Assembly (NCBI GenBank): GCA_001830835.1
Contig: MICJ01000009.1
Span: 1-48,818, forward strand
Direction of reading: 5' to 3'
DNA: 48,818 nucleotides
Origin: Syntrophobacterales bacterium GWC2_56_13
GTDB taxonomy: Bacteria; Desulfobacterota; Syntrophia; Syntrophales; UBA5619
Below are positions 6,077 through 26,377 of the stretch, in pieces. A program made the translations under genes and the position numbers. Below the pieces are notes generated by a model. It was given only the letters and a program-made list of their open reading frames with translations. It was not told the DNA's origin and did no database searches. The first letter of the stretch is position 1; the number at the start of each line of letters is the position of its first letter.

Positions 6077-6181
6077 TTATCAGTTCAGTTCATAGGTATT
6101 GGCCTCCGCGTGATTGTCTCCATTTCTTTTTTGCGGGGATTGTCAAGGGGTTTTTGGCGTCCACTCTAATGGACTTTTCCC

Positions 6182-6290
6182 GGTGATTTCACCGTTTCGG
6201 GTGGTGATTTCACCAAGTCATTATTACATCATGTTATTATGTGGTTAGATGAATTTGGGTGAATATTTTTTTTATGGGTGGTGATTTCAC
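6182..6290. repeat. Three copies of the palindromic 11-12-mer GGTGATTTCAC(C)
   Basis: Copies at 6182-6193, 6203-6214 and 6280-6290. Copies 2 and 3 share the extended GGGTGGTGATTTCAC. GGTGA-TT-TCACC is itself an inverted repeat. Confidence 0.6.
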
Positions 6291-6613
6291 TGTTTTTGGG
6301 CTTTGGCTAAGATGTTCGTAACTCGGCGTAAAAAATTATTATCGGTTGTTTTTGCGAATAGATAGATGATATTTGGGATGAATTATAATAAATCGGCACG
6401 GATCGTGCTGCTAACAATACTTCTAAGGCAGAGCAGCGGAGCGCAAAAAACAAACGAAAGGAGGATAATGACAAAAGCGGAAGAAACCGAATCTGCAATA
6501 AAATGGCTTAAAATTATTACGTTTATTTTCTAGAAACTGTGTTATTCTTGTCCCAGATGTAATTATCAACGTTTTATTAAAAATTAAAATCTATTTAAGA
6601 GGAGGCAAACACA

Positions 6614-7174
6614 ATGAAAAATGCAAATCCAGCACCGATTGGTGTAGTAGCCTTTGGGACAGCGTGTTTTGTAGTCGGATCACTTTTTGCCGGTCTGTTT
6701 GGAGCTTTAAGTCCTGGAAATATGCTTATGTCGGGTATTCTTTCAATTGTTACTGGTATTATACTTTTAGCAGTTTGCTGTTTAATGATTTCAGGAAACT
6801 CTCTGGCTGATTCCCCTGTCTTTTCAATGTGGGGGGCAACCATATTTGGGTTCTTTTCGTTAGTGTGGCTATGTTTAGGAGCAGTATTAATTTTGTGGAA
6901 AGACGGTGTTACCGACCCCTTATCCTTCCTGCTGTTATTCGTTTGTTTCTTCTCAGTTGGATATGCCTATCACTCATATGTATTAAAACTCTGGTCATTT
7001 TGTATTCTGTTTCTTGCTGTTGTTGTCGCAACTCTTAGTGCCTTTGCCGGACTGTACGGCGGATGGGCTCCAGGCAATCAGATAGCCGGCTACATCTTTA
7101 TTTTCCTCTCAGCGCTGGCTCTGTATATCATGTTTAAGGAGCAACTTAGTGCTGTCTTACCGGCGAAAGAATAA
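6614..7174 (+). CDS. GPR1/FUN34/YaaH (SatP)-family small-carboxylate channel
   Basis: The N-terminal NPAPIGVVAFG matches the family signature NPAPLGLxGF. There are six hydrophobic segments. An SD sequence (AGAGGAGG) lies upstream. Confidence 0.8.
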   Translation: MKNANPAPIGVVAFGTACFVVGSLFAGLFGALSPGNMLMSGILSIVTGIILLAVCCLMISGNSLADSPVFSMWGATIFGFFSLVWLCLGAVLILWKDGVTDPLSFLLLFVCFFSVGYAYHSYVLKLWSFCILFLAVVVATLSAFAGLYGGWAPGNQIAGYIFIFLSALALYIMFKEQLSAVLPAKE

Positions 7175-7201
7175 TTATAACGTATAAATACAAATACAAT
7201 A

Positions 7202-7240: not shown

Positions 7241-7808
7241 AAAATTCTACCGCAGAATACCCCGTCCTGTGGACGCCGAAGTTTGACACCTCAATTCAAT
7301 AGTACGTATAATTATCAGTTAGATATAAATTTTATCCATCCGTTTTATACACTGCATTGTTCCCCCGAAGAGCAGGCGGAAGAGAAGGTGCGCCCAATTC
7401 CTTCAGGATCTCCTTCTGCTCCGTCGTCGCCTCTGTAGCCAGAAGAGTGAAGGGGGAAGAGAACGATGCCCACATTTCTCTCTTCCAGAATAAGTGACTT
7501 CATACCCCAAAGTGTAACTTAAATATCTTTAAAAATTGTCTTGACAACCGGGTCCACCTTAAACGATTGTAAGCATATCGAGTCAATTTAATGTGCGACG
7601 TTACAGCCCCGAATGGCTGGTCAAATGTTCGTCGCCCTCTTTGATGATAAATTCTACAGGTCGCATTTTCACCTCCCAGATGTTGCTTCTGCGGCAAGTG
7701 AATACCATAAATGACCTGTATTATCAAGTATTTATATTAATTACAGCGGCTTTCGCGCCACTAATTCAAGTATATCTTATTAGCAATAAGACATGCAAGG
7801 AAAGGGTT

Positions 7809-9509
7809 ATGAGTTCTCAGATTCAGCTTCAGCTCTTGGACTTGGTAAACAAAGAGAAATTGGAGAGAATCCTTCGAGTCTTCACCGAGGTCACTGGGGT
7901 GGCGTCAATCATTGCCAATGTTAACGGACACCCTATTACTAAGCCGCTTAATTTCACGCCTTTCTGTCTCAATTTTTGCCGTTCCACTGATAGGGGCAAG
8001 CGTAAATGTCACGAAAGCGACCGCCATGGAGGTCTGGAATCTGCCCGATCCAGAAAACCCTACATTTATAATTGTTTGAACGCCGGGCTCATTGATTGTG
8101 CGGCTCCAGTCATCGTGGCGGGTTATCATCTGGCTACAATTTTGGCGGGCCAGGTCCTGGAGGAACCCATTGCTGCTGAAGCAGCCATTGAACGGGCCAA
8201 AGCAATCGGGATAAAAGATAGAGAAGATTATTTGCAGGCACTGGAAAAGGTACCTTTGATGACACGCGAGCGGTTGCTGGCTGTTGTGAACCTTATGTCC
8301 GAGATCACTCAAACAATCAGCGAATTGGCTTTGCAGAAAGACCAATTACACAAACATTCTCAGCATTATCTCAGCAGGCTGATCAACAGCGTTTCCGATT
8401 GCATTCTATCAACGAATGCCGATGGTAGAATCACCATTGTTAATCAGGCAGGCGTTAAAATGTTTGGCTATGAAACCGTGCAACTTATCGGCGAGTCCAT
8501 TAGAAAGCTTTTTGCGGAGGATGATTCAAAAATTCCGCAGTGGAAGAATCCAGATTCGAGGCTGAGCTTTAATCAGCGTGGCGAGCTAACAGCTATCTCT
8601 TCGGAAGGGCAGACTTTTCCGGTACAAGTGTCCTTCTCTGCAATCGGCGACGCTGGCCAACAAAACACCGGTTATGTATGGGTTATCAGGGACATCTCGG
8701 AAGAGAAAAGGTTGGAGCGGATGAAAGAAGACGTGGTGAACATGATCACTCACGATATGAGAAACCCTATAATTTCCCTGCAAAATGTCTTACAGCTTAT
8801 CGTTAATGGAACTGTTGGACGCCTCAATCTGAAGCAGAAGAACGTTATGGAATTGGCCCTGGCAACCTGTCATCAACTCTCCGGAATGGTGAGTGATATA
8901 TTGGACATTTACCGAAATGAAAGTGGACAGTTTGTACTGCACTGGACCCCTGTGTCCATCGATCAAATCATTTTAGAGAGCTTCAGCCAGCTTGATCTTT
9001 TTGCAAAGGAAAAACGGATATCCATGCAATTTGAAACACCATCACTTCCACTGAAATTACTGGGAGATCAAAAGCGCCTGAGACGAGCTCTTGTCAATTT
9101 ACTGGAGAACGCTATCAAGTACAGCCCGGAGGGCGGTGTTGTCCAGGTTGAGGCGGAAATGCGGGATAGGGGTTGGGAACAATCGGGAAAGCTCGAAACC
9201 ATCCCATCAGATCCGACTTCGGTGAAAGCAGAACAGGATTGTCTTATGCTTACGTTCACGGATCATGGTATCGGCATCCCTGCCGAATACCGTCAGTGCA
9301 TTTTTGATAAATATTTTATCATTAAATCGGAAAGTGAAAGCCGGAGGGAGGGGATTGGGTTGGGTTTGGCTTTTTGCAAGCAGGTTATTGAAGCTCATGG
9401 TGGAAATATATGGGTTGAGTCGCCAGTCCTGAGCGATGCAGCAGGCCATCGACGAGGCTGTTGTTTTTATGTGACATTGCCGGTCAATTTCGCGGAATCG
9501 AGATGCTGA
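7809..9509 (+). CDS. Cytoplasmic sensor histidine kinase: PocR sensory domain, PAS, HisKA, HATPase_c
   Basis: The PocR-like N-terminus includes VASIIANVNGHPITKP...FCLNFCRSTDRGKRKCHESD...LIDCAAPVIVAGYHLATILAGQV. The PAS region includes SDCILSTNADGRITIVNQAG. H-box ITHDMRNPI, N-box LLENAIKYSP, G-boxes DHGIGIP and GIGLGLAFCK. No TM segment is present. The start was chosen at ATG 7809, after AAGGAAAGGG. Confidence 0.85.
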   Translation: MSSQIQLQLLDLVNKEKLERILRVFTEVTGVASIIANVNGHPITKPLNFTPFCLNFCRSTDRGKRKCHESDRHGGLESARSRKPYIYNCLNAGLIDCAAPVIVAGYHLATILAGQVLEEPIAAEAAIERAKAIGIKDREDYLQALEKVPLMTRERLLAVVNLMSEITQTISELALQKDQLHKHSQHYLSRLINSVSDCILSTNADGRITIVNQAGVKMFGYETVQLIGESIRKLFAEDDSKIPQWKNPDSRLSFNQRGELTAISSEGQTFPVQVSFSAIGDAGQQNTGYVWVIRDISEEKRLERMKEDVVNMITHDMRNPIISLQNVLQLIVNGTVGRLNLKQKNVMELALATCHQLSGMVSDILDIYRNESGQFVLHWTPVSIDQIILESFSQLDLFAKEKRISMQFETPSLPLKLLGDQKRLRRALVNLLENAIKYSPEGGVVQVEAEMRDRGWEQSGKLETIPSDPTSVKAEQDCLMLTFTDHGIGIPAEYRQCIFDKYFIIKSESESRREGIGLGLAFCKQVIEAHGGNIWVESPVLSDAAGHRRGCCFYVTLPVNFAESRC

Positions 9510-9586: not shown

Positions 9587-10252
9587 ATGAGAGTTTTCCT
9601 GGCAGATGATCATCCTTTGTTCCGTATCGGTCTGAGAATTGCTTTGGATCAGGAAACGGACATCCAACTTATTGGAGAAGCCAGTGATGGCTTCAGTGCG
9701 GTCGAGAAAATCCAGGTCGACCCACCCGATGTTTCTCTCATCGATGTGGACATGCCGGGGATATCAGGCATTCGGGTCATTCGCATGCTTCGCAAAGCGT
9801 ACCCTCAAATGAAAATTATAGTACTTTCCACTTACGATGACAAGAATTACATCCATGGCGCCATGCAGGCGGGCGCCGACGGCTACGTGCTCAAATGTGT
9901 TGAGGTTGCTGAACTGGTTCGGATCATAAAGTCTTTTTTTGAGGGACATCAGGCAGTCTCCCCCTATCTGGTGAACCTGTCCTTGGACTTCAAAGCGACT
10001 GTAAGTACGAGCGGGGAAGTCAAAAAAGTTGAGTATCCCGTTTTGACTCACCGTGAAAAGGAAATTCTCCGGTCCATCATCGAGGGTCAGAGCAATAAGG
10101 AAATTTCTCATACCTTGTATGTCAGCGTCGAAACCGTGAAGAGTCATATCAAGAGCATCTACCATAAACTACAAGTAAAAAATCGTGTGGAAGCAGTGAC
10201 AGTCGCCATAAAGCAGAATGTCCTTCCACAAAACGGTATTCATCTAAACTGA
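9587..10252 (+). CDS. NarL/FixJ (LuxR-type HTH) response regulator
   Basis: REC domain (LADDHPLF...DVDMPGISG...VLSTY) plus a C-terminal LTHREKEILRSIIEGQSNKEISHTLYVSVETVKSHIKSIYHKL. Confidence 0.9.
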   Translation: MRVFLADDHPLFRIGLRIALDQETDIQLIGEASDGFSAVEKIQVDPPDVSLIDVDMPGISGIRVIRMLRKAYPQMKIIVLSTYDDKNYIHGAMQAGADGYVLKCVEVAELVRIIKSFFEGHQAVSPYLVNLSLDFKATVSTSGEVKKVEYPVLTHREKEILRSIIEGQSNKEISHTLYVSVETVKSHIKSIYHKLQVKNRVEAVTVAIKQNVLPQNGIHLN

Positions 10253-10572: not shown

Positions 10573-11679
10573 ATGAGTCGGATGTTACTTGCACCAAGTC
10601 GTTACGTCCAAGGGGAGGGAGCCATCCATGAAATCGGCTTGCACGCCGCAAAGCTTGGTACTAAGGCCTTACTTACCGGAGGGAAAAGGGCTTTAGCCGC
10701 CTGCGGTCAGGCGATTCAAACCAGCCTCAAAGAGAAAAACATCAACTGTTGCCAGGAGCATTTTAACGGGGAATGTTCGGACAATGAAATCAATCGCCTG
10801 GTGAGCCTTGCGCGAAAAGAGGGTGCTGATTTCATCATCGCTGCGGGGGGCGGCAAGGTCATCGACACGGGAAAAGCGGTAGCCCACTTTATGAAAGTGC
10901 CGGTGATCGTCGTGCCAACCATCGCCGCAACGGATGCTCCCTGTTCTGCATTGTCGGTGGTTTACACTGATGCGAGCGTTTTCCAACGGTACCTGGTATT
11001 GCCTCACAACCCGGACTGCGTCCTGGTCGATACCCGTATAGTAGCCGATGCTCCCGTTGAAACCTTAGTGTCCGGCATGGGGGACGCCCTCGCCACCTTC
11101 TGGGAAGCGGATACGTGCAACAAGAGCTGTAAACCCAACGTACTCACTGGAGGAACTCCTCCCACCCGTTCCGCTATCGCGTTAGCCCGCCTGTGCTACG
11201 ACACATTGCTGGAATACGGACTCCAAGCCAAGCTGGCGGTTGAGAACCATTGTGTGACACCGGCAGTTGAAGCCATCGTTGAAGCCAACACTTTGCTGAG
11301 CGGTTTGGGCTTCGAAAGCGGAGGTCTGGCCGGCGCTCACTCAGTGCACAATGGATTTACCGTTCTGGAAAGTTCCCATCACAAACTCCATGGCCAAAAA
11401 GTCGCCTTCGGAACCCTCACCCAGTTGGTTTTGGAAGGCCGTTCATCAGATGAAATTTATGAGGTATTGGATTTTTGTCTCACCGTAGGGCTGCCGGTTT
11501 GTTTGGATGATTTGGGCATTCACAATCCCACGCGAGAAGAAATCCGAAAAGTGGCTGAAGCCACAACGGCTCCGGGTGAAACCATTCATGCCACCTGGTT
11601 CGAAGTCACTGCCGATAAGGTCGAGGCAGCAATATGGACGGCCAACGCCTTGGCCAAAAACTACAAGGAGGAGGGCTAA
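10573..11679 (+). CDS. gldA: Glycerol dehydrogenase-type (family III metal-dependent polyol dehydrogenase)
   Basis: Near-colinear with remembered Bacillus GldA: GGGKVIDTGKAVA, PTIAATDAPCSALSV, VEANTLLSGLGFESGGLAGAHSVHNGFT, HGQKVAFGTL. Confidence 0.9.
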   Translation: MSRMLLAPSRYVQGEGAIHEIGLHAAKLGTKALLTGGKRALAACGQAIQTSLKEKNINCCQEHFNGECSDNEINRLVSLARKEGADFIIAAGGGKVIDTGKAVAHFMKVPVIVVPTIAATDAPCSALSVVYTDASVFQRYLVLPHNPDCVLVDTRIVADAPVETLVSGMGDALATFWEADTCNKSCKPNVLTGGTPPTRSAIALARLCYDTLLEYGLQAKLAVENHCVTPAVEAIVEANTLLSGLGFESGGLAGAHSVHNGFTVLESSHHKLHGQKVAFGTLTQLVLEGRSSDEIYEVLDFCLTVGLPVCLDDLGIHNPTREEIRKVAEATTAPGETIHATWFEVTADKVEAAIWTANALAKNYKEEG

Positions 11680-11811: not shown

Positions 11812-12099
11812 ATGGTAAAAGAAGCATTGGGATTGATCGAAACGAAGGGGCTGGTCGCCATGATCGAAGCATCGGACGCCATGGTTAAAGCTGCCAACGT
11901 CCAGTTGGTCGGGTACGTAAAGATCGGGGCAGGCTTGGTGACCACCATGGTGAGAGGCGACGTGGGAGCGGTGAAAGCGGCCACTGACGCAGGTGCGGCC
12001 GCTGCACAAAAGGTGGGGGAAGTGATTTCAGTCCATGTGATACCCAGGCCACACCAGGATGTTGAAAAGATCTTGCCGCAACTCCCTGTTAACGAATAG
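11812..12099 (+). CDS. pduA: BMC-H hexameric shell protein (PduA/PduJ-like)
   Basis: [30 protein letters not shown]...[17 protein letters not shown] lies 6 nt upstream of ATG 11812. Confidence 0.9.
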
Positions 12100-12150: not shown

Positions 12151-12969
12151 ATGCAAGAGGAACTAATTAACAGAGTCATGCAAGAGGTGATGAAAAGGGT
12201 GGGTTCTGCGGCCTCCGGGAAAGCGAACCCGAAAGAATCTGAGGGAGGTGGCCCCAAGACGGTGCTTCCCAACCCCGACCTGGTTCAGGTCACGGAGTTT
12301 GTTGGAATAGGCTTGGGAGAGACACAGGGGATTGTCATTGCCAACCTTGATCCTGCCATTCACACGTTAATGGGAATCCCCGAAAAATATCGTGCAATCG
12401 GGGTGATCGGCGGCCGTGTTGGGGCAGGCCCTCAAATCATGGCAGCAGATGAAGCCGTGAAGGCCACCAACACCGAAATACTTGCCGTGGAAATGCCCCG
12501 AGATACAAAGGGTGGAGCCGGTCACGGAAATTTGATCATCTTCGGTGCAGAGGATGTATCTGATGCCCGGCGCGCGGTGGAAGTGACGCTGGAAGTCTTA
12601 CCGAAATATTTTGGGGATGTCTATGCCAACGACCAGGGGCATCTTGAACTACAGTACACCGCCCGCGCCAGCCGTTGCTTGCATTACGTGTTCAAATCTC
12701 CCGAAGGGAAAGCTTTCGGGTTGATTCTTGGGGCGCCCGCAGTGATCGGCGTATTGATGATCGATACGGCGGTCAAGGCGGCGGATGTCCAGGTGGTGGG
12801 TTATGCTTCTCCCGCAAAAGGAACGAGCCTCACCAATGAAGTCATGATATGGGTAACCGGAGACTCGGGTGCAGTGCGCCAGGCTGTCACGGCCAGCCGT
12901 GAAATAGGAATCAAGCTGCTTGGTGCATGGGGTCAGGAACCCAAGTCTGTCACTCAACCATACATTTGA
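12151..12969 (+). CDS. pduB: BMC-T tandem-domain shell protein (PduB-like) with an N-terminal amphipathic extension
   Basis: Two BMC domains (AIGVIGGRVGAGPQIMAADEAVKATN; PAVIGVLMIDTAVKAADV). The protein is 272 aa. The N-terminus is MQEELINRVMQEVMKRV. Confidence 0.9.
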   Translation: MQEELINRVMQEVMKRVGSAASGKANPKESEGGGPKTVLPNPDLVQVTEFVGIGLGETQGIVIANLDPAIHTLMGIPEKYRAIGVIGGRVGAGPQIMAADEAVKATNTEILAVEMPRDTKGGAGHGNLIIFGAEDVSDARRAVEVTLEVLPKYFGDVYANDQGHLELQYTARASRCLHYVFKSPEGKAFGLILGAPAVIGVLMIDTAVKAADVQVVGYASPAKGTSLTNEVMIWVTGDSGAVRQAVTASREIGIKLLGAWGQEPKSVTQPYI

Positions 12970-12986: not shown

Positions 12987-14654
12987 ATGAGTAAGAGACA
13001 AAAGCGCTTTGAGGTGCTGGCCCAGCGTCCAGTCAACAAGGACGGCTTTATCAAGGAGTGGATGGAAGTGGGCCTTGTTGCGATGGACAGCCCAAATGAT
13101 CCAGCACCTGGAATCAAGATCCAAAACGGTAAGGTTGTCGAGCTTGACGGGAAACTCCGTGAGAAGTTTGACATGATTGATTTATGGATTGCCGACCATT
13201 CTATCGACACCTCGATAGCTGAGAAGGCCATGGCCATTGATTCGACCCAGTTTGCCCGGATGCTCGTGGACATCAATGTGCCTCGCGCAGAAATTGTGCG
13301 CCTATCCGTAGGACTGACGCCGGCCAAAATATTGGATGTCTTGAATAAGATGAATGTGGTTGAGCTGATGATGGCCATGCAGAAGATGCGGCCCCGCCGC
13401 ACGCCTTCCAATCAGGCCCACGTGACCAATCTGAAAGACCATCCTGCCCTCTTGGCGGCGGATGCCGCGGAAGCGGCCTTCCGTGGCTTTACGGAAGAGG
13501 AAACCACCGTGGGGGTGGGGCGCTATGCTCCCATGAATGCCCTTTCCTTATTGGTGGGCGCCCAGACGGGCTGCCCCGGTGTCATCAACCAGTGCGCCGT
13601 GGAGGAAGCGCTCGAACTCAGCATGGGTATGCGCGGACTCACGGCCTATGCGGAAACGGTGTCCGTGTACGGTACCGAGCAGGTATTCGTGGACGGAGAT
13701 GATACTCCCTGGTCAAAAGCGTATCTCGCTTCCGCCTATGCCTCGCGAGGTCTCAAGATGCGGTACACTTCAGGGACCGGTTCGGAGGTGCAGATGGGCT
13801 ATGCCGATGGCAAGTCCATGCTATACTTGGAGATTCGCTGTGTGATGCTCGCCAAGGGAGTAGGCGTCCAGGGCGTGCAAAATGGTTCCATCAGTTGTAT
13901 CGGTGTTCCCGGATCCGTTCCCTCCGGCATTCGCGCGGTGCTTGCGGAAAACGTGGCCACGGTCCTGCTGGACCTCGAAGTGGCCTCGGGCAATGACCAG
14001 ACGTTTACCCATTCGCCCATTCGCAATACAGCTCGCATGCTCATGCAGTTTCTCCCCGGTACGGACCTGATCGTTTCGGGCTACAGTTCGGTGCCCAATT
14101 ATGACAACATGTTTGCCGGCTCCACACATGACTGCGACGATTATGACGACTGGCTGGTTTTGCAGCGCGACCTTCAGATTGACGGCGGCCTGCACCCGGT
14201 AAAAGAAGCGGACGTCATCGCGATCCGCAACAAGGGCGCCCGCGCCTTGCAGGCCGTGTTTAAGGAAGTGGGGCTCCCACCGATAACGGACGAAGAGGTT
14301 GAAGCCGTCACCTATGCGCATGGCAGCAAGGACGTGCCTGACCGTAATGTGACGGAAGATCTCCGCGCCATTGAAGATTTCATGAAGCGCGGCGGCAACG
14401 GGGTCGACGCGGTGCGCGCATTGGTAAAACATGGATTCCGCGATGTGGCGGAAGCGGTGCTGGGCATTCTCAAGCAAAAAATTTCCGGCGATTATCTCCA
14501 TACATCGGCCATTCTGAAACCCAATTTCGATGTATTGAGCGCGGTGAACGACCTCAACGATTACCAGGGACCCGGTACCGGTTATCGTCTCGAAGGTAAA
14601 AGGTGGGAAATCTTGAAGGACATCCCGCAAGCCATCAGTCCTGAAGATATTTAG
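12987..14654 (+). CDS. pduC: B12-dependent diol/glycerol dehydratase large subunit
   Basis: MSKRQKRFEVLAQRPVNKDGFIKEW..., TPSNQAHVTN, QCAVEEA, SVYGTEQVFVDGDDTPWSKA and GVQNGSISCIG match PduC/DhaB1. Confidence 0.95.
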   Translation: MSKRQKRFEVLAQRPVNKDGFIKEWMEVGLVAMDSPNDPAPGIKIQNGKVVELDGKLREKFDMIDLWIADHSIDTSIAEKAMAIDSTQFARMLVDINVPRAEIVRLSVGLTPAKILDVLNKMNVVELMMAMQKMRPRRTPSNQAHVTNLKDHPALLAADAAEAAFRGFTEEETTVGVGRYAPMNALSLLVGAQTGCPGVINQCAVEEALELSMGMRGLTAYAETVSVYGTEQVFVDGDDTPWSKAYLASAYASRGLKMRYTSGTGSEVQMGYADGKSMLYLEIRCVMLAKGVGVQGVQNGSISCIGVPGSVPSGIRAVLAENVATVLLDLEVASGNDQTFTHSPIRNTARMLMQFLPGTDLIVSGYSSVPNYDNMFAGSTHDCDDYDDWLVLQRDLQIDGGLHPVKEADVIAIRNKGARALQAVFKEVGLPPITDEEVEAVTYAHGSKDVPDRNVTEDLRAIEDFMKRGGNGVDAVRALVKHGFRDVAEAVLGILKQKISGDYLHTSAILKPNFDVLSAVNDLNDYQGPGTGYRLEGKRWEILKDIPQAISPEDI

Positions 14655-14677
14655 GCATGAGTGAGGGAGGCAGAGAA

Positions 14678-16001: not shown

Positions 16002-17828
16002 ATGGCCTACATTGCGGGCGTTGATGTTGGTAACAATACAACCGAGGTCGCCATAGCGGAGGTAAATCAACAGGGAAAGGTCAGCTTTCTTTCGAGTGCA
16101 ATTGTACGGACAGTGGGCATCAAAGGCACCATTCAAAATGCCATAGGGGTAATCTTTGCCCTCGATACGGCTCTCAAGCCCTTGGCCTTGCAGCGCAAAC
16201 ATCTTTCCCTGATTCTTCTCAATGAAGCTACTCCGGTCATCGGTGATGTGGCTATGGAGACGATCACCGAAACAATCATCACCGAATCGGCCATGATCGG
16301 TCATAACCCTTCAACTCCTGGCGGCCAAGGTTTAGGGGTGGGAACGACCATCGCCTTAGATTCTTTGGCATCGGCAGTCCGAGGTCAGAAATGGATACTC
16401 GTCATGCCCGAAACAGTGGATTTTCGGGAAGCGGCTGCCCGCATCAATGAATTCATGGCGGAAGGCAAAGAGATTGTCGGAGCAATTATCCGGAATGACG
16501 ACGGCGTGCTCATTCACAATCGCTTACTCCGCCCCATCCCCATCGTTGACGAGGTGGAACACATTGATCGTGTCCCATTGGGAATGCCGGCGGCGGTGGA
16601 GGTAGCGCCCCCCGGGAGAACCATCGAAAAGCTCTCCAATCCCTATGACATTGCCACCATATTCAATCTGGACTCCGAAGAAACCCGTCGGATTGTTCCC
16701 GTAGCGCGAGCTCTTATGGGCATCCGTAGCGCCGTCGTCATCAAGACCCCAAAGGGAGATATTCAGGAGCGACGGATTCCCGCAGGAAAGCTTGTCCTCA
16801 TTGGCAAGAACCAGAAGGCCCAGGTGCAGGTTGAGGAGGGGGCCGAGGCCATCATGGCACGCACGGAAGAGATTTCCCCTCTTGTGGAAATCCAGGCGGA
16901 ACCGGGCACTAATGTGGGGGGAATGTTTGAACAGGTAAGAAAGGTCATGGCTGAACTGACGGATCAGCCGGTCCAACAGATCTCGGTACGCGATATCCTT
17001 GCGGTGGATACTTTTAAACCCCAGAGGGTTCTGGGGGCCTTGGCAGGCGAATACACATTGGGAAATGCGGTCGGGCTAGCCGCCATGGTGGAAACGCACA
17101 AGCTCCCCATGCAGCGCCTGGCGAGTAAGATTGAGGACGAGATCCTTGTTTCTTGTGCCGTCGGCGGAGTTGAAGCAGAGATGGCTGTCCGTGGAGCTTT
17201 AACCACTCCCGGAACCAGCCCCCCCTTGGCCATCCTGGATCTTGGGGGAGGGTCCACGGATGCCGCGTTAATCTCGGAAGATGGAATGATTCAAAGCATT
17301 CACCTGGCTGGCGCGGGCGAGATGGTCACCTTGCTAATAGACACGGAATTGGGTCTTGAAGACAAAGAACTCTCAGAAGACATCAAGCGCTACCCTCTGG
17401 CAAGAGTGGAGAGCCTTTTACACATACGACATGAAGACGGTTCCGTGCAATTCTTTGAAAAGGCGCTGGACCCAAAATTCTTCGGGCGGCTGGCCATCGT
17501 CACCGATACCGGGCTCCTACCTCTCGACGCCAAGGTCACTCTGGAACAGGTTATCGCCGTTCGCCGGCAGGCTAAACGCAAGGTTTTTGTCAGCAATGCC
17601 CTCCGCGCATTAAAAAGAGTGGCCCCAGCGGGAAACATCCGGCTGATACACTTCGTGGTTCTGGTGGGAGGTTCAGCATTAGATTTTGAAATACCCAAAA
17701 TGGTTACGGATGCGCTCAGCGAATACGGGGTTGTAACCGGCAGAGCGAATGTTCGAGGCACAGAAGGCCCGCGTAACGCCGTGGCCACGGGTCTCATCCT
17801 TGCCCATGAGGAAAAGAGGGCAGCATGA
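16002..17828 (+). CDS. pduG: Diol dehydratase reactivase large subunit
   Basis: MAYIAGVDVGNNTTEVA parallels PduG MRYIAGIDIGNSSTEVA. Other matches are NEATPVIGDVAMETITETIITES, RNDDGVL, LSNPYDIAT and EGPRNAVATGLIL. An alternative start is ATG 15987. Confidence 0.9.
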   Translation: MAYIAGVDVGNNTTEVAIAEVNQQGKVSFLSSAIVRTVGIKGTIQNAIGVIFALDTALKPLALQRKHLSLILLNEATPVIGDVAMETITETIITESAMIGHNPSTPGGQGLGVGTTIALDSLASAVRGQKWILVMPETVDFREAAARINEFMAEGKEIVGAIIRNDDGVLIHNRLLRPIPIVDEVEHIDRVPLGMPAAVEVAPPGRTIEKLSNPYDIATIFNLDSEETRRIVPVARALMGIRSAVVIKTPKGDIQERRIPAGKLVLIGKNQKAQVQVEEGAEAIMARTEEISPLVEIQAEPGTNVGGMFEQVRKVMAELTDQPVQQISVRDILAVDTFKPQRVLGALAGEYTLGNAVGLAAMVETHKLPMQRLASKIEDEILVSCAVGGVEAEMAVRGALTTPGTSPPLAILDLGGGSTDAALISEDGMIQSIHLAGAGEMVTLLIDTELGLEDKELSEDIKRYPLARVESLLHIRHEDGSVQFFEKALDPKFFGRLAIVTDTGLLPLDAKVTLEQVIAVRRQAKRKVFVSNALRALKRVAPAGNIRLIHFVVLVGGSALDFEIPKMVTDALSEYGVVTGRANVRGTEGPRNAVATGLILAHEEKRAA

Positions 17829-18328
17829 ACCGGCATCCCGCAGTATGGATATTTAAGGCCCGCTCTGTTTTGACCGATTCCTTTCAACCTGTACTCTGGG
17901 GTCTGGAAGAAGAAGGAATCCCGTTCGAAATCCGCGAAGTGAGCAACGGGCCGATTGTAGACCTTGCTAAGCAGGCTGCCGATGGTTCGCCTCTCAATGT
18001 AGGTATCGGTATAGGTGGAAGTGGTGAGGTTATTCTTCATCACCATGATTTACCGAGCGAGACTCCATTGTTTTCTCTTACAACCAAAACCCGGCAGCCC
18101 GTCCGTTTGCGTCACCTGGGAATGAATGCCGCCCGCTTGGTCAAAGGGCAACCCCTCGTCTTTGGCAGTGACGGGGCCTCTCTTGCCGGCGTTGATAATT
18201 CTCTAAGGAATCCTCAAGATGAATCGGAGGAGCTGATCAATCTGATACTTGATGAGATACTGAAGGGTTATGCTGATTTATCGAACGACGATTGTGCGAT
18301 CCGAAAATGTCAGAGTGGGGAGTTATAA
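17825..18328 (+). CDS. pduH: Diol dehydratase reactivase small subunit with a C-terminal extension of about 45 aa
   Basis: LWGLEEEGIPFEIR, SPLNVGIGI, PLFSL and NAARLVKGQPL match PduH/DdrB. There is a 4-nt overlap with pduG. Confidence 0.8.
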   Translation: MNRHPAVWIFKARSVLTDSFQPVLWGLEEEGIPFEIREVSNGPIVDLAKQAADGSPLNVGIGIGGSGEVILHHHDLPSETPLFSLTTKTRQPVRLRHLGMNAARLVKGQPLVFGSDGASLAGVDNSLRNPQDESEELINLILDEILKGYADLSNDDCAIRKCQSGEL

Positions 18329-18359: not shown

Positions 18360-18872
18360 ATGAAAAACAATAGCCTCGGATTGATCGAAACCTGGGGATT
18401 TGTGCCAGCAATCGTTGCTGCAGACGCAGCGAGCAAGGCTGCCTTGGTTTCTCTGCGTGGTTATGAGCTGGCAAGGGCAGGTCTGGTTACAATAAAAGTG
18501 GTCGGTGCTGTGGCTGCAGTCAAAGCGGCGGTTTCAGCAGGGGCAGCAGCGGCAGAAAAGGTTGGCAAGGTGAGTTCTGTGCATGTGATTCCGAGACCAG
18601 ATCGCCAACTGCGGATCAGCCAGCCTGGTCCCAAAGGTCCGGAGAAAACGCAGGAGACAGCGCCACCTTCTGCTCCGCTACCCCTGGAAGAAAGCTTGGC
18701 AGAACCGCCCAAGATCATTGAAGAGGGAGGAACTTCTCGGGTTCCTGTCCCGCCGACAGAATTGCCCGACCATAGAGGTCCCGAAAAGCAAGACGGGAGA
18801 AGCCCAAAAGCTCGGAAACACGCAAGGCCTCAAAAATACAAGCTCAAAGGTCGGGGGAAAAGCGAACCTTAA
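18360..18872 (+). CDS. pduK: BMC-H shell protein with a long Pro-rich, strongly basic C-terminal tail (PduK-like architecture)
   Basis: The BMC domain is LGLIETWGFVPAIVAADAASKAA...VHVIPRP. The tail of about 85 aa is ...PPSAPLPLEE...RSPKARKHARPQKYKLKGRGKSEP and contains no Cys. Confidence 0.8.
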   Translation: MKNNSLGLIETWGFVPAIVAADAASKAALVSLRGYELARAGLVTIKVVGAVAAVKAAVSAGAAAAEKVGKVSSVHVIPRPDRQLRISQPGPKGPEKTQETAPPSAPLPLEESLAEPPKIIEEGGTSRVPVPPTELPDHRGPEKQDGRSPKARKHARPQKYKLKGRGKSEP

Positions 18873-18984: not shown

Positions 18985-19602
18985 ATGGCGGAGCTCCGTG
19001 CGTATGTCTATTTAGATCGACTTCAACCTCAATTCGCTGCTTACCTTGGGGCCAATGCGCGGGGTTATATCCCCGTGGTCGGCATGGCCTCCATTCTCGT
19101 AGAAATTGCTCCGGGAGTGATCATCAACCAATTAACGGATGCAGCTCTCAAAGCCGCGAACGTTCGCCCTGGTCTCATGGTGGTGGAACGTCATTTTGGA
19201 GTACTCGAGTTTCACTCCAAGGCGCAAGCAGACGTCAAACAAGCGGGCCATGCAGTGCTCACGTCTCTTGGGATGACGGTGGAGGACCGAGTCAAACCGC
19301 AGATTCTTAGTTCTCAAATCATTCATAAAGTCAACGACTATCATGCTCAAATGGTGAACGTCACTCGACTGTGTTCTATGCTCCTGCCGGGACAGGATCT
19401 CTATATTCTCGAGGTCGTACCCGCCGGGTACATCACCCTGGCTGCCAACGAAGCAGAGAAAAACGCCCTGATCACCCTGGTTGACTGCAGATCATATGGC
19501 GCCGTGGGCCGGCTGTACATCGGCGGTAAGGAATCCGATGTCGCCCGTGCCGCGAAAGCCGCGGAAACCTCTATTCTCAATCTCACGGGAAAAGCATCTT
19601 GA
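18985..19602 (+). CDS. Tandem-BMC-domain shell protein of the CcmP/CsoS1D (BMC-T, double-stacking) type
   Basis: MAELRAYVYLDRLQPQFAAYLG..., VERHFGVLEFH, RVKPQILSSQIIHKV, LYILEVVPAGYITLAANEAEKNALI and YGAVGRLYIGG closely parallel remembered Synechococcus CcmP ([23 protein letters not shown]...). Confidence 0.75.
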   Translation: MAELRAYVYLDRLQPQFAAYLGANARGYIPVVGMASILVEIAPGVIINQLTDAALKAANVRPGLMVVERHFGVLEFHSKAQADVKQAGHAVLTSLGMTVEDRVKPQILSSQIIHKVNDYHAQMVNVTRLCSMLLPGQDLYILEVVPAGYITLAANEAEKNALITLVDCRSYGAVGRLYIGGKESDVARAAKAAETSILNLTGKAS

Positions 19603-19626
19603 TTTGAGCGGAATGGAGATAATTTG

Positions 19627-20487
19627 ATGATCAAAGATTCAGCCAATCAACTCTTATTAGCCTTTGAGTCTTCTCTGGTGCTCAATGGGAACGGACATCG
19701 CTGCGAACCTTTGTTTGCCGGTGTGGACCTGGGGACGGCCTATACCGTTACTGCAGTTGTCGACGCCGCCGGCGCCCCCGTTGCGGGAGCATTGACTCGT
19801 AGCCGATCCAGCGTAAGAGATGGGTTGGTCTTAGATTACGTAAGCGCCATTGGCATTGTTCGTCAACAGGTAAAACTGCTCCACGAAGCCGGCTTCCACA
19901 TTACATCTGCAGCAGCGGCTTATCCTCCCGGCACTACGGGACGAAACGCTCAGACGTTTGCCAACGTGCTGGCGGCTGCGGGTTTACAGGTATCCGGACT
20001 GATCGACGAACCGACTGCGGCTTCTCTCGTACTGGAGATTGCGGATGGAGCGGTGGTGGATATTGGCGGCGGCACCACAGGTATTTCCGTGATTCGGAAT
20101 GGGGAGGTGGTTTACACGGCTGATGAAGCCACCGGCGGGATCCACGTTGACCTTGTGATCGCCGGACACTATAAAATCAGCACCGATGAAGCGGAAAGAA
20201 TGAAGACTGATTCCCAGCAGCAATCAACCCTCTTTCCCCTGGTACGACCAGTGTTCCAAAAAATGGCCAGCATCGTGCGCCATCATTTGCAGCAACACCC
20301 GGTAGTCTCTCTTTATCTGGTCGGCGGTACGAGTTGTTTCCCGGGAATCGAACAGGTGATGGAAATGGAGACAGGCCTCTCTGTGGAAAGACCGGTTACC
20401 CCTCTGTTGGTCACTCCTTTGGGCATTGCGTTGAGTTGCCTGAAAACCGAGAGGAAAGAATCAGGCCGGATGGGAAAAACCCGATGA
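19627..20487 (+). CDS. eutJ: EutJ-like actin/Hsp70-fold ATPase (putative chaperone)
   Basis: GVDLGTAYTV, GLIDEPTAAS, VVDIGGGTTGISV, ADEATGGIHVD and LVGGTSCFPG. Confidence 0.85.
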   Translation: MIKDSANQLLLAFESSLVLNGNGHRCEPLFAGVDLGTAYTVTAVVDAAGAPVAGALTRSRSSVRDGLVLDYVSAIGIVRQQVKLLHEAGFHITSAAAAYPPGTTGRNAQTFANVLAAAGLQVSGLIDEPTAASLVLEIADGAVVDIGGGTTGISVIRNGEVVYTADEATGGIHVDLVIAGHYKISTDEAERMKTDSQQQSTLFPLVRPVFQKMASIVRHHLQQHPVVSLYLVGGTSCFPGIEQVMEMETGLSVERPVTPLLVTPLGIALSCLKTERKESGRMGKTR

Positions 20488-21302
20488 TCCAAGAAGAACA
20501 GATCCGGGATATCATCGTGAAGGTCATTCACAGACTGGCCCAGCGCCTGGGTGCGCTCGGCGACAAAGGCGAGCTTATGGTTGTCTTCACTGCCGCCACG
20601 GTGGGGTTTCGCGAGGCCGTCCAGCAAGTCCGCGATCTCATTTTGGATGGATTTCAGGTCCGGCTGGCTTTTTCTCCGGCGGCGGAGCGCCTCATCTCCT
20701 CGGGGATTAAGCAGCAATTGGATGGTTTTCCCCATGTGAGCATGGTTGAACCTGCGACATGGCTGTCTTTCTTGAAGGACGCCCGTGCTGTTGTGGTACC
20801 GTTGCTTAGCCTCAACACGCTTTCAAAGTTATCCATGTTGATCGCGGATAACACGGCTACGAATATCATCCTGCATGCGCTCCTCATGGGGAAACCCGTG
20901 GTTGTGGCCCGAAATGGTGCAGATCCCAGTGATAAGGGAAGGGTGGAACTCGGGTTCCATAAAGGAAAAGCGGCACTGAAGCAGGCCATAGCGCAGCGCC
21001 TGCAAACGGTAGAGGACTATGGCTGCATCTCAACCGATATACGACAACTTAGAAACACCGTGAAATTTATGCTGATTAGTGAAGAAGCCCCAGACGTTAA
21101 ACAACGGGAGATCACATCTGCCTCTCCTGTGCCAACTCTTAGCATTTCTAAACGGTTCGTAACCGCCAATGAGGTGCTTCATGCGTGGCGAAGAGGAGCG
21201 AATCTGAACGTCGGATATGCATCCGGAATGACTCCCTTGGCTCAGGACTTGGCCAGACGGTATGGGGTTGTCCTCACGACAGATAACGACGGAGCTAGCT
21301 AA
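20484..21302 (+). CDS. pduM: PduM-like BMC-associated protein (extended form, 272 aa) with a flavoprotein-fold-like middle region
   Basis: The N-terminal MIQEEQIRDIIVKVIHRL resembles PduM MNGELLQRIVEEVVSRL. LLSLNTLSKLSMLIADNTATNIILHALLMGKPVVVA resembles PduM LLQADLPLLEQIAEGCADNMSVVTIHEALACGIRVKI. The C-terminal FVTANEVLHA...MTPLAQDLARRYGVVL resembles the PduM C-terminus. The start overlaps the eutJ stop (ATGA). Confidence 0.55.
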   Translation: MIQEEQIRDIIVKVIHRLAQRLGALGDKGELMVVFTAATVGFREAVQQVRDLILDGFQVRLAFSPAAERLISSGIKQQLDGFPHVSMVEPATWLSFLKDARAVVVPLLSLNTLSKLSMLIADNTATNIILHALLMGKPVVVARNGADPSDKGRVELGFHKGKAALKQAIAQRLQTVEDYGCISTDIRQLRNTVKFMLISEEAPDVKQREITSASPVPTLSISKRFVTANEVLHAWRRGANLNVGYASGMTPLAQDLARRYGVVLTTDNDGAS

Positions 21303-21321: not shown

Positions 21322-21600
21322 ATGCTGATTGCTAAAGTGATCGGGACTCTCGTCGCCACACGCAAACACGAACGCCTCGTGGGAAGCAAGATACAAATTG
21401 TTCAGCCTCTGGATCATGAAGGGTTGGTCCCTAAGGGTGATCCTTTCGTGGCCGTGGATGCTGTTGGGGCCGGCGTCGGCGAGCGCGTCATCTTGGTAAG
21501 GGGAAGTGGCGCCCGTAAAGCTGTAGATGACGATCAGTGTCCGGTGGATGCTACGATCATTGGCATCATTGATCGCATTGACATTGAAGAAGTCAACTGA
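21322..21600 (+). CDS. pduN: BMC-P pentameric vertex protein (PduN/EutN/CcmL family)
   Basis: MLIAKVIGTLVATRKHERLVGSKIQIVQPL...AVDAVGAGVGERVILVRGSGAR...DATIIGIID. Confidence 0.9.
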   Translation: MLIAKVIGTLVATRKHERLVGSKIQIVQPLDHEGLVPKGDPFVAVDAVGAGVGERVILVRGSGARKAVDDDQCPVDATIIGIIDRIDIEEVN

Positions 21601-21618: not shown

Positions 21619-22212
21619 ATGGCTGAAGTCTTGCGAAAAATCTACACCCGTTTCGGCGACCGAGGGCAGACGAAACTCTTGAGCGGAGAGACTGTCGAAA
21701 AGGACGACCTCCGTGTGAACACGTATGGGGCGCTCGATGAACTCCAATCTCACCTCGGAATGGCTCGAAGCCTTATTCAGGAAGAATCTGTGCGATCTAT
21801 CCTTCGTGCTATTCAAAAAGATCTATTTATGGCTGGTGCGGAGTTGGCTTCGACGCCGGAGCGGATTTCTCAACTTGGAAATCGCATCACCACAAAGGAT
21901 GTGAACAAGCTGGAGGACTGGATTGATCAGATGACTGACTGGTTCGGCATGCCCGACGGTTTTATCATTCCAGGTGATTGTCCGGAAAGCGCTGCGCTCC
22001 ATCTAACTCGCTCCGTGTGCCGCCGGATCGAGCGTCTGATCGTAAGCCTCAATCGCAGCACCGGAACATACGAGGAATTGATCGTTTATATCAATCGATT
22101 AAGTGACCTGCTCTTCGTTCTGGCATGGTCAACGGCAGTCGCAGTTGCCATTAAAAAAGTTTTGGATGAGTTGATGGCTGTTTCGAGATCGCCAGCCAAA
22201 GGAAGGCATTGA
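21619..22212 (+). CDS. pduO: PduO-type ATP:cob(I)alamin adenosyltransferase (stand-alone ATR domain)
   Basis: KIYTRFGDRGQTKLLSGETVEKDDLRVNTYGALDELQSHLG..., LHLTRSVCRRIER and YINRLSDLLFVLA. Confidence 0.9.
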   Translation: MAEVLRKIYTRFGDRGQTKLLSGETVEKDDLRVNTYGALDELQSHLGMARSLIQEESVRSILRAIQKDLFMAGAELASTPERISQLGNRITTKDVNKLEDWIDQMTDWFGMPDGFIIPGDCPESAALHLTRSVCRRIERLIVSLNRSTGTYEELIVYINRLSDLLFVLAWSTAVAVAIKKVLDELMAVSRSPAKGRH

Positions 22213-22215: not shown

Positions 22216-22797
22216 GTGAAGCTTCCCTTTCCTTTATCGCGCATATTGGCTTCCCTTGCAGAAAGCGCCGCCGCGGATATGGGACTTGCCATGGCCGTAG
22301 CCATCGTGGACCACGAAGGCCTCTTGCAGTACTTTGCGCGCATGGAGGGCGCCTTGCCGGCAAGCACGGAAATCGCCATTTCCAAAGCTTATACAGCGGC
22401 AGCTTTGCGCATGTCGACCCGCGAAGTGGGACAAATGGCGCTCCCAGGTCATCCACTTTACGGGATTCAACATACTCATGCCGGAAAGATCGTCCTCTTT
22501 GGTGGCGGCTTCCCCCTGAAGTTGCGAGGACAAGTGGCGGGTGGGATTGGAATCAGCGGTGGAAGCGTCGAAGAAGATGAGCGGGTAGCATGGGCGGTAC
22601 TGGATACCCTTGGTGAAGTGGAATGTCTGGCGGAATCGATCAAGCCCCTTCTTCGAGGGAAACCTCTGGGGACAAACTGGATGTCCTACCTGGAAAGATG
22701 TCTGGAGAAGGCTTTTCTCAAAGAAGGTTGTTTGATCACTCATGAATTTATTTCCATTCTTGCTGCGGCTTTTATCATAGCTTCTGATGACCATTAG
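22216..22797 (+). CDS. GlcG/HbpS-like DUF336 protein (equivalent of the PduO C-terminal domain) with a C-terminal extension of about 55 aa
   Basis: GTG start 3 nt after the pduO stop. MAVAIVDHEGLLQYFARMEGA, AISKAYTAAALRMST and GGIGISGGSVEEDERVA. Confidence 0.8.
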   Translation: MKLPFPLSRILASLAESAAADMGLAMAVAIVDHEGLLQYFARMEGALPASTEIAISKAYTAAALRMSTREVGQMALPGHPLYGIQHTHAGKIVLFGGGFPLKLRGQVAGGIGISGGSVEEDERVAWAVLDTLGEVECLAESIKPLLRGKPLGTNWMSYLERCLEKAFLKEGCLITHEFISILAAAFIIASDDH

Positions 22798-22925
22798 TTG
22801 ATGTCTATCGACAGTTCGTATTAGGAATGGGACAATGATGAGGATAGAGGGGGGAAAGAAAAGCGCTTTGCGGATAAAGGTCCGGCCCTATCGGTCAGTG
22901 GCTTTAAAATTGTGTGAAAGGAGGC

Positions 22926-24329
22926 ATGGCAGTGGAAACCAACCACGAACTCATCTTAACTGTGGTCAAAAAAGTATTGTCGGAAATGATCGAGGAGAAG
23001 ATCGTCCAGGCCGAAGGTCCCACAGGTATTTTTGAGACTGTTGATCAAGCGGTGGAAAATGCCGTTGCAGCGCAAAAGAGACTGTTAGCGCTGCCTTTGC
23101 GCCATCGGGATAAAATCATCGCTGCTATCCGGCAGGCCGCTTTGGATCATAATGAAACGATTTCTGCTTTAGCGGTGAAAGAATCAGGACTTGGTCGCTA
23201 TGAGGACAAGCTCCGGGAAAATATCCTATGCGCCACCAAAACCCCGGGTACTGAAGACATCGAACCTCGCGCTTACAGCGGAGATGACGGTCTGACCTTG
23301 ATCGAATATGCTCCTCGTGGGGTTATCGGGTCATTGACTCCTATTACCAACCCCACCGGTACAGTCATCAATAACGCCATCAGCATGGTGGCGGCCGGTA
23401 ACGCTGTGGTTTTTAACCCTCACCCCACTGCACGCGAGACCAGTATTAAGACCATTCGAATCCTTCACGAAGCCATTGTTCGCGCGGGAGGTCCTCCGGG
23501 TTTGATATCATCCGTGCCGAAGCCCGATCTTACTACAGCCAAACAACTCATCGAACACCCCAAAATCAACATGTTGGTGGCTACAGGAGGTCGGCCCGTA
23601 GTCGATGTCGTCCTTCGTTCAGGCAAGAAGGCCATCGGAGCCGGCGCTGGAAATCCTCCGGTACTGGTGGATGAAACCGCCAACATCCGCAGGGCCGCCG
23701 CTTCCATCATTGACGGTGCGAGCATCAACAACAACATCTTTTGTACCTGCGAAAAAGAAGTGATTGTGGTCAGCGCGGTTGCTGATGCACTGATCAGCTT
23801 TATGATGGAGACGGGAAAGGCCTATCTGTTGACGCCGGCGCAGGCTGAGCAGGTAATCAAGCTTATCGTAACGCCGGAGGGGAAGATCAACACGGCCTAC
23901 ATCGGCAAGGACGTACAGGTGATCTTAAAGGAAATCGGGATTAACGTGGGAGAAGAGTGCCGATTGGCCATTTTTGAAGCCGAAAAAAACCACCCGCTCG
24001 TTTGGTTGGAACAAATGATGCCTGTTATGCCGATCGTACGCGTCAGAGACGTCAGTGAGGGGATTGATTTTGCCGTACAGGTGGAACAGGGGAATCGTCA
24101 TACAGCCATTATGCACTCGAATCATGTAGAACACATGACCGCATTTGCGCGGGCGGTGCAAACAACCATTTTTGTAAAAAATGGACCTTCCTATGCAGGT
24201 ATCGGTCTCGGAGGGGAGGGACATACCTCTTTTACAATTGCAGGGCCAACGGGAGAAGGATTGACTTCGGCCAGAACTTTCACTCGGATCCGGCGCTGTA
24301 CGTTGGTTGACGCGTTTCGCATTATCTAA
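22926..24329 (+). CDS. pduP: CoA-acylating aldehyde dehydrogenase with an N-terminal encapsulation peptide
   Basis: N-terminal ETNHELILTVVKKVLSEMIEE. The core includes TNPTGTVINNAISMVAAGNAVVFNPHP, GAGAGNPPVLVDETA, the CTCEKE catalytic Cys region, FVKNGPSYAGIG and TFTRIRRC. The exact start is uncertain: GTG 22914, ATG 22926 or GTG 22932. The SD GGAGG ends at 22924. Confidence 0.9.
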   Translation: MAVETNHELILTVVKKVLSEMIEEKIVQAEGPTGIFETVDQAVENAVAAQKRLLALPLRHRDKIIAAIRQAALDHNETISALAVKESGLGRYEDKLRENILCATKTPGTEDIEPRAYSGDDGLTLIEYAPRGVIGSLTPITNPTGTVINNAISMVAAGNAVVFNPHPTARETSIKTIRILHEAIVRAGGPPGLISSVPKPDLTTAKQLIEHPKINMLVATGGRPVVDVVLRSGKKAIGAGAGNPPVLVDETANIRRAAASIIDGASINNNIFCTCEKEVIVVSAVADALISFMMETGKAYLLTPAQAEQVIKLIVTPEGKINTAYIGKDVQVILKEIGINVGEECRLAIFEAEKNHPLVWLEQMMPVMPIVRVRDVSEGIDFAVQVEQGNRHTAIMHSNHVEHMTAFARAVQTTIFVKNGPSYAGIGLGGEGHTSFTIAGPTGEGLTSARTFTRIRRCTLVDAFRII

Positions 24330-24509
24330 TTGCAAGGTTTGAAATTCCCTGAGGAGCGTCAGCCGTGGGCATCGAAATCAATTGAAATGTCATCATCGTT
24401 GACGCCCCCGTAAAAGTCACGCGACTGCAAGCGGTTTTGCGGTCATGAAATCTCACCGCCACGATGCGGTCATTGAAATACGGCGGGTTTCACGGAAGCA
24501 TTCGGTCCT

Positions 24510-25829
24510 ATGAGTTTGGCTGAACAAGTAAAACAAGCCGGCGTGGTTGGCGCAGGCGGTGGCGGCTTCCCCGCACACATCAAGGTGGCGGGCAAAGCCG
24601 ACACCGTTATTGCGAACGGCGCCGAGTGTGAACCCTTATTGTACAAGGATGCCGCCGTCATGGAGCATAGAGTGGAGGAGGTGGTGGCGGGCTTGCAGTT
24701 GGTCATGGACGCCGTCGGCGCCAGGAACGGCATCATCGGCATCAAAGCCAAAAAGAAGCGCGCCGTCGAAGCCATCCGAGACGCTTGCCAGGGCACATCT
24801 TTGCGCATGCATCTGCTCGGTGATTATTACCCCGCCGGCGACGAATACGAACTGGTCAACGCAGTGACCGGCCGGCTGATTCCGCCGCAGGGTATTCCTC
24901 TGCAGATCGGTGTCGTCGTAAGCAACGTCGAGACGCTGGCGAACATTGCAGCCGCAGCCCGAGGTGTGCCGGTTACCCGGAAGACGATCACCCTGGCGGG
25001 GGCAGTGAAAAATCCAGTGACGATCACTGTGCCGATCGGCACAACGTTCCGCGAGGCGATTGAAGCTGCCGGCGGTCTGACTACCGGCGACCCCGTGTTG
25101 TGCGTCGGCGGATTGATGATGGGCCAGACCACCGACGACCTGGACACACCCATCGTCAAGACCTCGAGCGGTGCGGTGATCCTGCCGCGCAGCCATTTTG
25201 TCATCGAGCGCAAGCTCAAGCCCGACCCGCTCAAATCGCGCATCGGCAAGTCAGCCTGCGACCAATGCCGCTACTGCACCGAGTTATGTCCGCGTTACCT
25301 GCTCGGCTACGCGGTCGAACCGCACCAGGTCATGCGCAGCCTGGCATTCACCGCTACCGACAAGAGTTACTGGAACCAGATGGCAGTAAACTGCTGCGCG
25401 TGCGGGCTTTGCACGCTCTATGCCTGCCCCGAATCACTTTTCCCGAAGGAAGCTTGTGATGCGTCGAAAACCGAAATGCGAGCCGCGAACATCAGATGGA
25501 CCGGCGCGGCGCCGACCAGACCGCATCCGCTGCACGACGGCCGGCGCGTGCCGATCAAGATGTTGATGAAGAAATTTGCCCTTGAGAAATACGATGTGCC
25601 CGCGCCGTGGCAGGACATCGCCGTCACACCGCGTCAAGTCATTCTGCCGCTGAAACAAGCGGCCGGCGCGCCGAACAAGCCAATTGTGAAAAAAGGCGAC
25701 GAGATCACGGTCGGGCAGCCGTTGGGCGAGATTTCCGACAAGGACCTGGGCGCGATCATCCATGCGCCGATAGCCGGGATCGTCGCCGAGGTCACCGATG
25801 ACCTCATTATTTTGACGAGGCAAGCATGA
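24510..25829 (+). CDS. pduS: PduS-like cobalamin reductase (RnfC/NuoF-like flavoprotein with two 4Fe-4S motifs)
   Basis: VKQAGVVGAGGGGFPAHIK, ANGAECEPLLYKD, CDQCRYCTELCP and CCACGLCTLYACP. Confidence 0.9.
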   Translation: MSLAEQVKQAGVVGAGGGGFPAHIKVAGKADTVIANGAECEPLLYKDAAVMEHRVEEVVAGLQLVMDAVGARNGIIGIKAKKKRAVEAIRDACQGTSLRMHLLGDYYPAGDEYELVNAVTGRLIPPQGIPLQIGVVVSNVETLANIAAAARGVPVTRKTITLAGAVKNPVTITVPIGTTFREAIEAAGGLTTGDPVLCVGGLMMGQTTDDLDTPIVKTSSGAVILPRSHFVIERKLKPDPLKSRIGKSACDQCRYCTELCPRYLLGYAVEPHQVMRSLAFTATDKSYWNQMAVNCCACGLCTLYACPESLFPKEACDASKTEMRAANIRWTGAAPTRPHPLHDGRRVPIKMLMKKFALEKYDVPAPWQDIAVTPRQVILPLKQAAGAPNKPIVKKGDEITVGQPLGEISDKDLGAIIHAPIAGIVAEVTDDLIILTRQA

Positions 25830-26377
25830 ACGGGAAATCCATTGGTTTGATTGAACTCTCCAGCATCGCCGCCGGCTTTGCCGTAGCCGACGCGATGCTG
25901 AAAGCGGCCGACATCCAGCTCATCCTGTCGCGCAGCATTTGCTCCGGCAAATACATGGTGTTGATCGGCGGCGCGGTCGGCGCCGTGCAGCGCGCAGTAG
26001 AGGCGGGTGTCATCGAGGCAAACGGGTGTATTATCGATAAATTCATCATTTCGAACGTTCACGCCGACGTCTTCGCCGCTCTTGGCCGTTCGCAAGTGCC
26101 GGAACAGGTTGGTGCGCTGGGAATTGTAGAATCATTCAGCGTTGCCTCATTGCTGGAGGGGGCTGACGCCGCAGCTAAGGCTGCAAATGTGACGCTGTTG
26201 GAAATCCGCCTGGCAATGGCCCTCGGCGGCAAGGCATACTTTACGATGACCGGCGACGTCGCCGCAGTTCAATCGGCCGCGCATGCGGCCAAGCTCGTGA
26301 TCGCCGAACGCGGCCTGCTGGTCAACTCTGTCGTCATTTCTCGGCCCCATCCCGACGTCTATCGCGAAGTGGTGTAG
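25826..26377 (+). CDS. pduT: PduT-like tandem BMC-T shell protein (Fe-S pore type)
   Basis: SIGLIELSSIAAGFAVADAMLKAADI...SRSICSGKY carries the conserved Cys. The second domain is ALGIVESFSVASLLEGADAAAKAANV. There is a 4-nt overlap with pduS. Confidence 0.9.
   Translation: MNGKSIGLIELSSIAAGFAVADAMLKAADIQLILSRSICSGKYMVLIGGAVGAVQRAVEAGVIEANGCIIDKFIISNVHADVFAALGRSQVPEQVGALGIVESFSVASLLEGADAAAKAANVTLLEIRLAMALGGKAYFTMTGDVAAVQSAAHAAKLVIAERGLLVNSVVISRPHPDVYREVV

What the first reader, a model, noticed from the sequence alone, without database searches (positions are those of the whole stretch)
6077..26377. A ~20-kb lower-G+C block encodes a complete but non-canonical B12-dependent diol/glycerol dehydratase microcompartment
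Seen in sequence:
- There are 18 co-directional, tightly spaced genes from 10573 to 26377.
- Six of them are shell genes: PduA-type BMC-H, PduB-type BMC-T, a PduK-like BMC-H with a tail, a CcmP/CsoS1D-type BMC-T, a PduT-type Fe-S BMC-T and a PduN BMC-P.
- The enzyme set is PduCDE dehydratase, PduGH reactivase, PduO adenosyltransferase, a DUF336 protein, PduS reductase and PduP aldehyde dehydrogenase.
- EutJ and a PduM-like protein are also present.
- A SatP-like channel and a PocR-domain two-component system lie upstream.

Against the established Salmonella order pduABCDEGHJKLMNOPQSTUVWX, this locus keeps the backbone order but differs as follows:
- pduJ, L, Q, U, V, W, X and pduF are absent.
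- A CcmP-like BMC-T plus eutJ sit where pduL would be.
- A gldA-type dehydrogenase has been added at the front.

Inference: the flanks are G+C-rich and encode typical anaerobe housekeeping functions, so this is probably a horizontally acquired PDU-derived metabolosome variant. Its substrate (glycerol or 1,2-propanediol) and its downstream chemistry are unresolved.
Basis: partly seen in the sequence, partly recalled or inferred. Interest (0 to 1): 0.85.

Follow-up and report, generated by a model that had tools for sequence, protein, structure and literature searches.

The report
Catalogued PDU1D propanediol-type microcompartment locus
This is a real, intact gene cluster for a vitamin-B12-dependent diol-degrading protein organelle, but this exact locus is already listed in the published microcompartment catalogue as type PDU1D and the same gene order recurs in dozens of other genomes, so it is ordinary.

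Summary
No pduL, pduQ, pduU, pduV, pduM or pduF homologue lies anywhere in the window.

Corrections:
- The "PduM-like" gene is a PF02441 flavoprotein with an encapsulation-peptide-like N-terminus.
- The "SatP-like" match is below threshold.
- The low G+C holds for third codon positions (0.58 against 0.75 in the flanks), but not for pduS/pduT.

The window comes from Syntrophobacterales bacterium GWC2_56_13. Its PduB, BMC-Tdp and PduT (locus tags A2X96_10195, _10230, _10270) are already labelled "PDU1D (main)" in Sutter et al. 2021. EutJ, the flavoprotein, the PocR kinase and a split PduO are standard PDU1D features.

36 of 38 long related loci from Desulfobacterota, Acidobacteriota, Verrucomicrobiia and Alphaproteobacteria share the gene order, and none has pduL. 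Compared with the founding Thermoanaerobacter PDU1D, the BMC-Tdp sits exactly in the pduL slot.

The missing alcohol dehydrogenase fits the published PduS/PduT NAD+-recycling mechanism. The missing PTAC fits a published hypothesis of acyl-CoA exit through BMC-Tdp. Horizontal origin is plausible. The substrate remains unresolved.

The parts
5865..6613 (.). AT-rich (42% G+C) non-coding left boundary of the low-GC3 block; holds three exact copies of GGTGATTTCAC (6182, 6203, 6280)
6614..7174 (+). Six-helix membrane protein; weak sub-threshold GPR1/FUN34/YaaH (SatP) similarity; own transcription unit, followed by a 19-bp-stem palindrome at 7199-7240
   Evidence: 22.6 bits, cutoff 25
7593..9509 (+). 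Cytoplasmic sensor histidine kinase with PocR, PAS, HisKA and HATPase domains (likely start about 7809); a perfect sigma-70 consensus lies at 7283-7312
9587..10252 (+). NarL/LuxR-type response regulator
10573..11679 (+). GldA-family glycerol/1,2-propanediol dehydrogenase with no terminal extension, so probably cytosolic
11812..12099 (+). Basal BMC-H (PduA/J-like; 79% identical to E. coli PduA; KAAN and PRPH motifs; pore loop KIGAGL)
12151..12969 (+). PduB-type BMC-Tsp (A2X96_10195 in Sutter 2021)
12987..14654 (+). Diol/glycerol dehydratase large subunit
14657..15322 (+). Dehydratase medium subunit with an N-terminal encapsulation-peptide-like helix
15386..15949 (+). Dehydratase small subunit with an N-terminal extension
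15918..17828 (+). Reactivase alpha subunit PduG (family match begins at residue 31, so the real start is probably about 16002)
17825..18328 (+). Reactivase beta subunit PduH
18360..18872 (+). BMC-H with an approximately 85-residue disordered Pro/Lys-rich tail; lacks the Cys motif of enterobacterial PduK
18985..19602 (+). BMC-Tdp (CcmP/CsoS1D-type stacking trimer; A2X96_10230); the Glu-Arg pair in VVERHFG aligns with CcmP FIERLYG; occupies the pduL slot of founding PDU1D loci
19624..20487 (+). EutJ-family actin/Hsp70-like ATPase
20484..21302 (+). BMC-associated flavoprotein: encapsulation-peptide-like helix (residues 2-21), UbiX/EpiD-like Rossmann domain, and a C-terminal domain of about 45 residues carrying a TPLA[RQ]D motif
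21322..21600 (+). BMC-P pentamer (PduN/EutN family)
21619..22212 (+). PduO-type ATP:cob(I)alamin adenosyltransferase, encoded as a separate gene
22216..22797 (+). DUF336/HbpS-like protein, equivalent to the C-terminal domain of PduO
22914..24329 (+). CoA-acylating aldehyde dehydrogenase PduP with an N-terminal encapsulation-peptide-like helix
24510..25829 (+). PduS/MNdh NADH-oxidising FMN and Fe-S flavoprotein
25826..26377 (+). PduT-type BMC-Ts with the pore cysteine (BMC-T^SE; A2X96_10270). DNA shared with L001 ends at 26392

Best explanation
The block is the main PDU1D-type bacterial microcompartment locus of Syntrophobacterales bacterium GWC2_56_13. It belongs to the BMC-Tdp-bearing PDU1D subclade that is common in Desulfobacterota and Acidobacteriota.

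Shown by sequence and database matches:
- A PocR-domain histidine kinase and a NarL-type regulator lie upstream of one gldA-pdu gene string.
- The shell set is a PduA-like BMC-H, a tailed BMC-H, a PduB BMC-Tsp, a BMC-Tdp, a Cys-pore PduT and one BMC-P.
- The cargo set is PduCDE, PduGH, PduO, DUF336, PduP, PduS and an encapsulation-peptide-bearing flavoprotein.
- The N-terminal helices on PduB, D, E and P correspond to the known encapsulation or shell-binding peptides.

Inferred:
- A vicinal diol (1,2-propanediol, glycerol or ethylene glycol) induces the operon.
- Inside the shell the diol is dehydrated to an aldehyde, and PduP oxidises the aldehyde to an acyl-CoA.
- No luminal alcohol dehydrogenase is encoded. 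NAD+ is therefore regenerated by PduS passing electrons out through the Fe-S cluster of PduT, which is the published MNdh/BMC-T^SE mechanism.
- No PduL is encoded. CoA is therefore not recycled inside the shell. Acyl-CoA and CoA would exchange with the cytosol, most plausibly through the gated BMC-Tdp pore that sits in the pduL slot. Propionyl-CoA could then enter host pathways directly.
- The block probably arrived by horizontal transfer.
For: - Identity of every gene.
- Source organism and published PDU1D label for three proteins of this locus.
- PDU1D-defining traits in the literature. An encapsulation-peptide HMM for the PDU1D flavoprotein exists.
- Conserved order in 36 of 38 loci of at least 18 kb, from four phyla.
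- No PduL in any of 80 Tdp-seeded loci.
- Founding Thermoanaerobacter-type PDU1D loci read K-pduL-eutJ-flavoprotein-N-O-P.
- Ilyobacter PDU1F reads K-J-pduL-flavoprotein-N.
- PduS/PduT regenerate NAD+ without an alcohol dehydrogenase; 361 loci show that pattern (PMC11626177).
- SPU microcompartments that lack PTAC typically encode a BMC-Tdp, and acetyl-CoA exit through it has been proposed (PMC11585597).
- In my loci, BMC-Tdp and PduL never co-occur: 0 of 86 loci of at least 15 kb.
- Composition and differing flanks.
Against: - No experiment exists for any member of this subclade. The literature searches returned no experimental study of it.
- A PTAC (PF06130, or a housekeeping PF01515 enzyme), an alcohol dehydrogenase and a propionate kinase could be encoded elsewhere in the genome. 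Only 48.8 kb of this genome, and 10 kb either side of each relative, were visible.
- 25 of the 36 loci that share the order show no pduS-pduT within reach, so the NAD+ solution is not uniform across the subclade.
- GldA could serve as the NAD+-recycling dehydrogenase.
- Passage of CoA esters through a BMC-Tdp has never been demonstrated.
- The Tdp/PduL exclusivity counts are phylogenetically non-independent.
- No integrase, tRNA or att repeats mark the block.
Confidence: 0.8

Rival explanations
1. It is a canonical closed-cofactor PDU metabolosome whose missing core enzymes (PTAC, alcohol dehydrogenase, propionate kinase) are simply encoded elsewhere in the genome. This would resemble EUT1, which uses a housekeeping-type PF01515 PTAC. 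On this reading the BMC-Tdp has another role, for example entry of B12, ATP or NAD.
For: - Only a 48.8-kb window and 10 kb either side of each relative were examined.
- Sutter 2021 notes that satellite loci are common and that EUT1 uses a PF01515 PTAC.
- Some relatives carry an Ldh-type or Zn-type dehydrogenase just after pduP.
Against: - 0 of 80 Tdp-seeded loci have PduL, while 25 of 30 AldDH-seeded loci of at least 15 kb have it next to the aldehyde dehydrogenase.
- The BMC-Tdp occupies the exact pduL slot.
- The same complementarity recurs across SPU subtypes.
Confidence: 0.3
2. The organelle is primarily a glycerol system, an encapsulated dha-like pathway. GldA oxidises part of the glycerol to dihydroxyacetone. 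The dehydratase makes 3-hydroxypropionaldehyde, and PduP converts that to 3-hydroxypropionyl-CoA.
For: - gldA lies directly upstream of pduA in 21 of 38 long relatives.
- GldA is a bona fide glycerol dehydrogenase family member.
- PduC is marginally closer to DhaB1 (66.7%) than to PduC (65.9%).
- The E. coli/Klebsiella dha regulon pairs gldA with the dehydratase.
Against: - No DhaK/L/M or DhaT gene was seen in the window or among the recurrent accessory genes of relatives.
- GldA enzymes also interconvert 1,2-propanediol with hydroxyacetone and ethylene glycol with glycolaldehyde. The NCBIfam propanediol/glycerol (436 bits) and glycolaldehyde reductase (442 bits) models both match below their cutoffs.
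- The 1% identity difference is meaningless.
- Acidobacterial, verrucomicrobial and alphaproteobacterial members mostly lack an adjacent gldA.
Confidence: 0.25
3. The lower G+C does not reflect horizontal transfer. The block is vertically inherited, and its composition reflects gene-specific constraints or expression level.
For: - No integrase, tRNA, transposase or flanking direct repeats were found.
- Overall G+C differs by only about 6 points.
- The locus type is widespread within Desulfobacterota.
Against: - GC3 is 0.58 against 0.75 (p = 1.5e-6), and the regulator and channel genes fall to 0.37-0.52.
- The flanks are not shared with the 94-97% identical L001 copy.
- Protein identities of 65-85% span four phyla.
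- Identity to L001 is mosaic: 86.5% over the regulator-gldA stretch against 96-97% over pduA-pduP.
Confidence: 0.15
4. It is a decaying, non-functional remnant. It lacks pduL and has lost two genes that relatives retain.
For: Compared with L001 and most relatives, the window lacks the DUF1097 gene between gldA and pduA and the second DUF336 gene between pduP and pduS.
Against: - All 18 reading frames are intact and tightly spaced.
- The architecture without pduL is conserved in 36 long loci.
- Identical copies occur in several independent groundwater assemblies.
Confidence: 0.04

Closest known systems
PDU1D microcompartment loci (Axen 2014; Sutter 2021), founding members in Thermoanaerobacter sp. 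X513/X514
   Same: - PduB-CDE-GH-BMC-H backbone.
- The eutJ-flavoprotein(PF02441)-pduN-pduO-pduP run.
- PocR-domain histidine kinase plus response regulator instead of AraC-type PocR.
- Adenosyltransferase and DUF336 encoded as separate genes here; the Thermoanaerobacter-type loci gave no separate DUF336 hit next to pduO.
- This exact locus carries the PDU1D label in the catalogue.
   Different: - The BMC-Tdp sits where pduL sits in Thermoanaerobacter-type loci.
- There is no PduU, PduV, MIP channel or DhaT-like Fe-ADH.
- gldA is added at the 5' end.
- The response regulator is LuxR-type rather than AraC-type.
Salmonella/E. coli PDU1AB operon (pduABCDEGHJKLMNOPQSTUV)
   Same: Same backbone order and same signature, reactivation and B12-recycling enzymes. 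Identities to the E. coli proteins: PduA 79%, PduC 66%, PduG 57%, PduP 46%, PduS 40%, PduT 41%.
   Different: - No pduF, J, L, M, Q, U, V, W or X.
- PduO is split into two genes.
- A two-component system replaces the AraC-type PocR.
- BMC-Tdp, EutJ, flavoprotein and GldA are added.
SPU2/3/5/6 sugar-phosphate microcompartments (Dwyer et al. 2024)
   Same: An aldehyde dehydrogenase-containing metabolosome that lacks a PF06130 PTAC and encodes a CcmP/CsoS1D-type BMC-Tdp. Acyl-CoA exit through the Tdp pore has been proposed for these.
   Different: Different signature enzymes (DERA/RPI), BMC-P triplets, and a different substrate class.
MNdh/BMC-T^SE (PduS/PduT) NAD+ regeneration module (Sutter et al., PNAS 2024)
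   Same: - Adjacent pduS-pduT.
- The Cys-pore PduT.
- The Complex1_51K, SLBB and 2x[4Fe-4S] domain set.
- An aldehyde dehydrogenase present and no luminal alcohol dehydrogenase.
   Different: Not tested here. Only 11 of 38 long relatives show the pair within reach. In this window the pair has a flank-like GC3.
Klebsiella-type dha regulon (non-encapsulated glycerol dehydratase)
   Same: gldA together with B12-dependent dehydratase, reactivase, adenosyltransferase and a GlcG/DUF336 protein.
   Different: The dha regulon has no shell genes and does have DhaKLM, DhaT and DhaR. Here there are no dha kinase or dhaT genes, and there is a full shell with encapsulation peptides.

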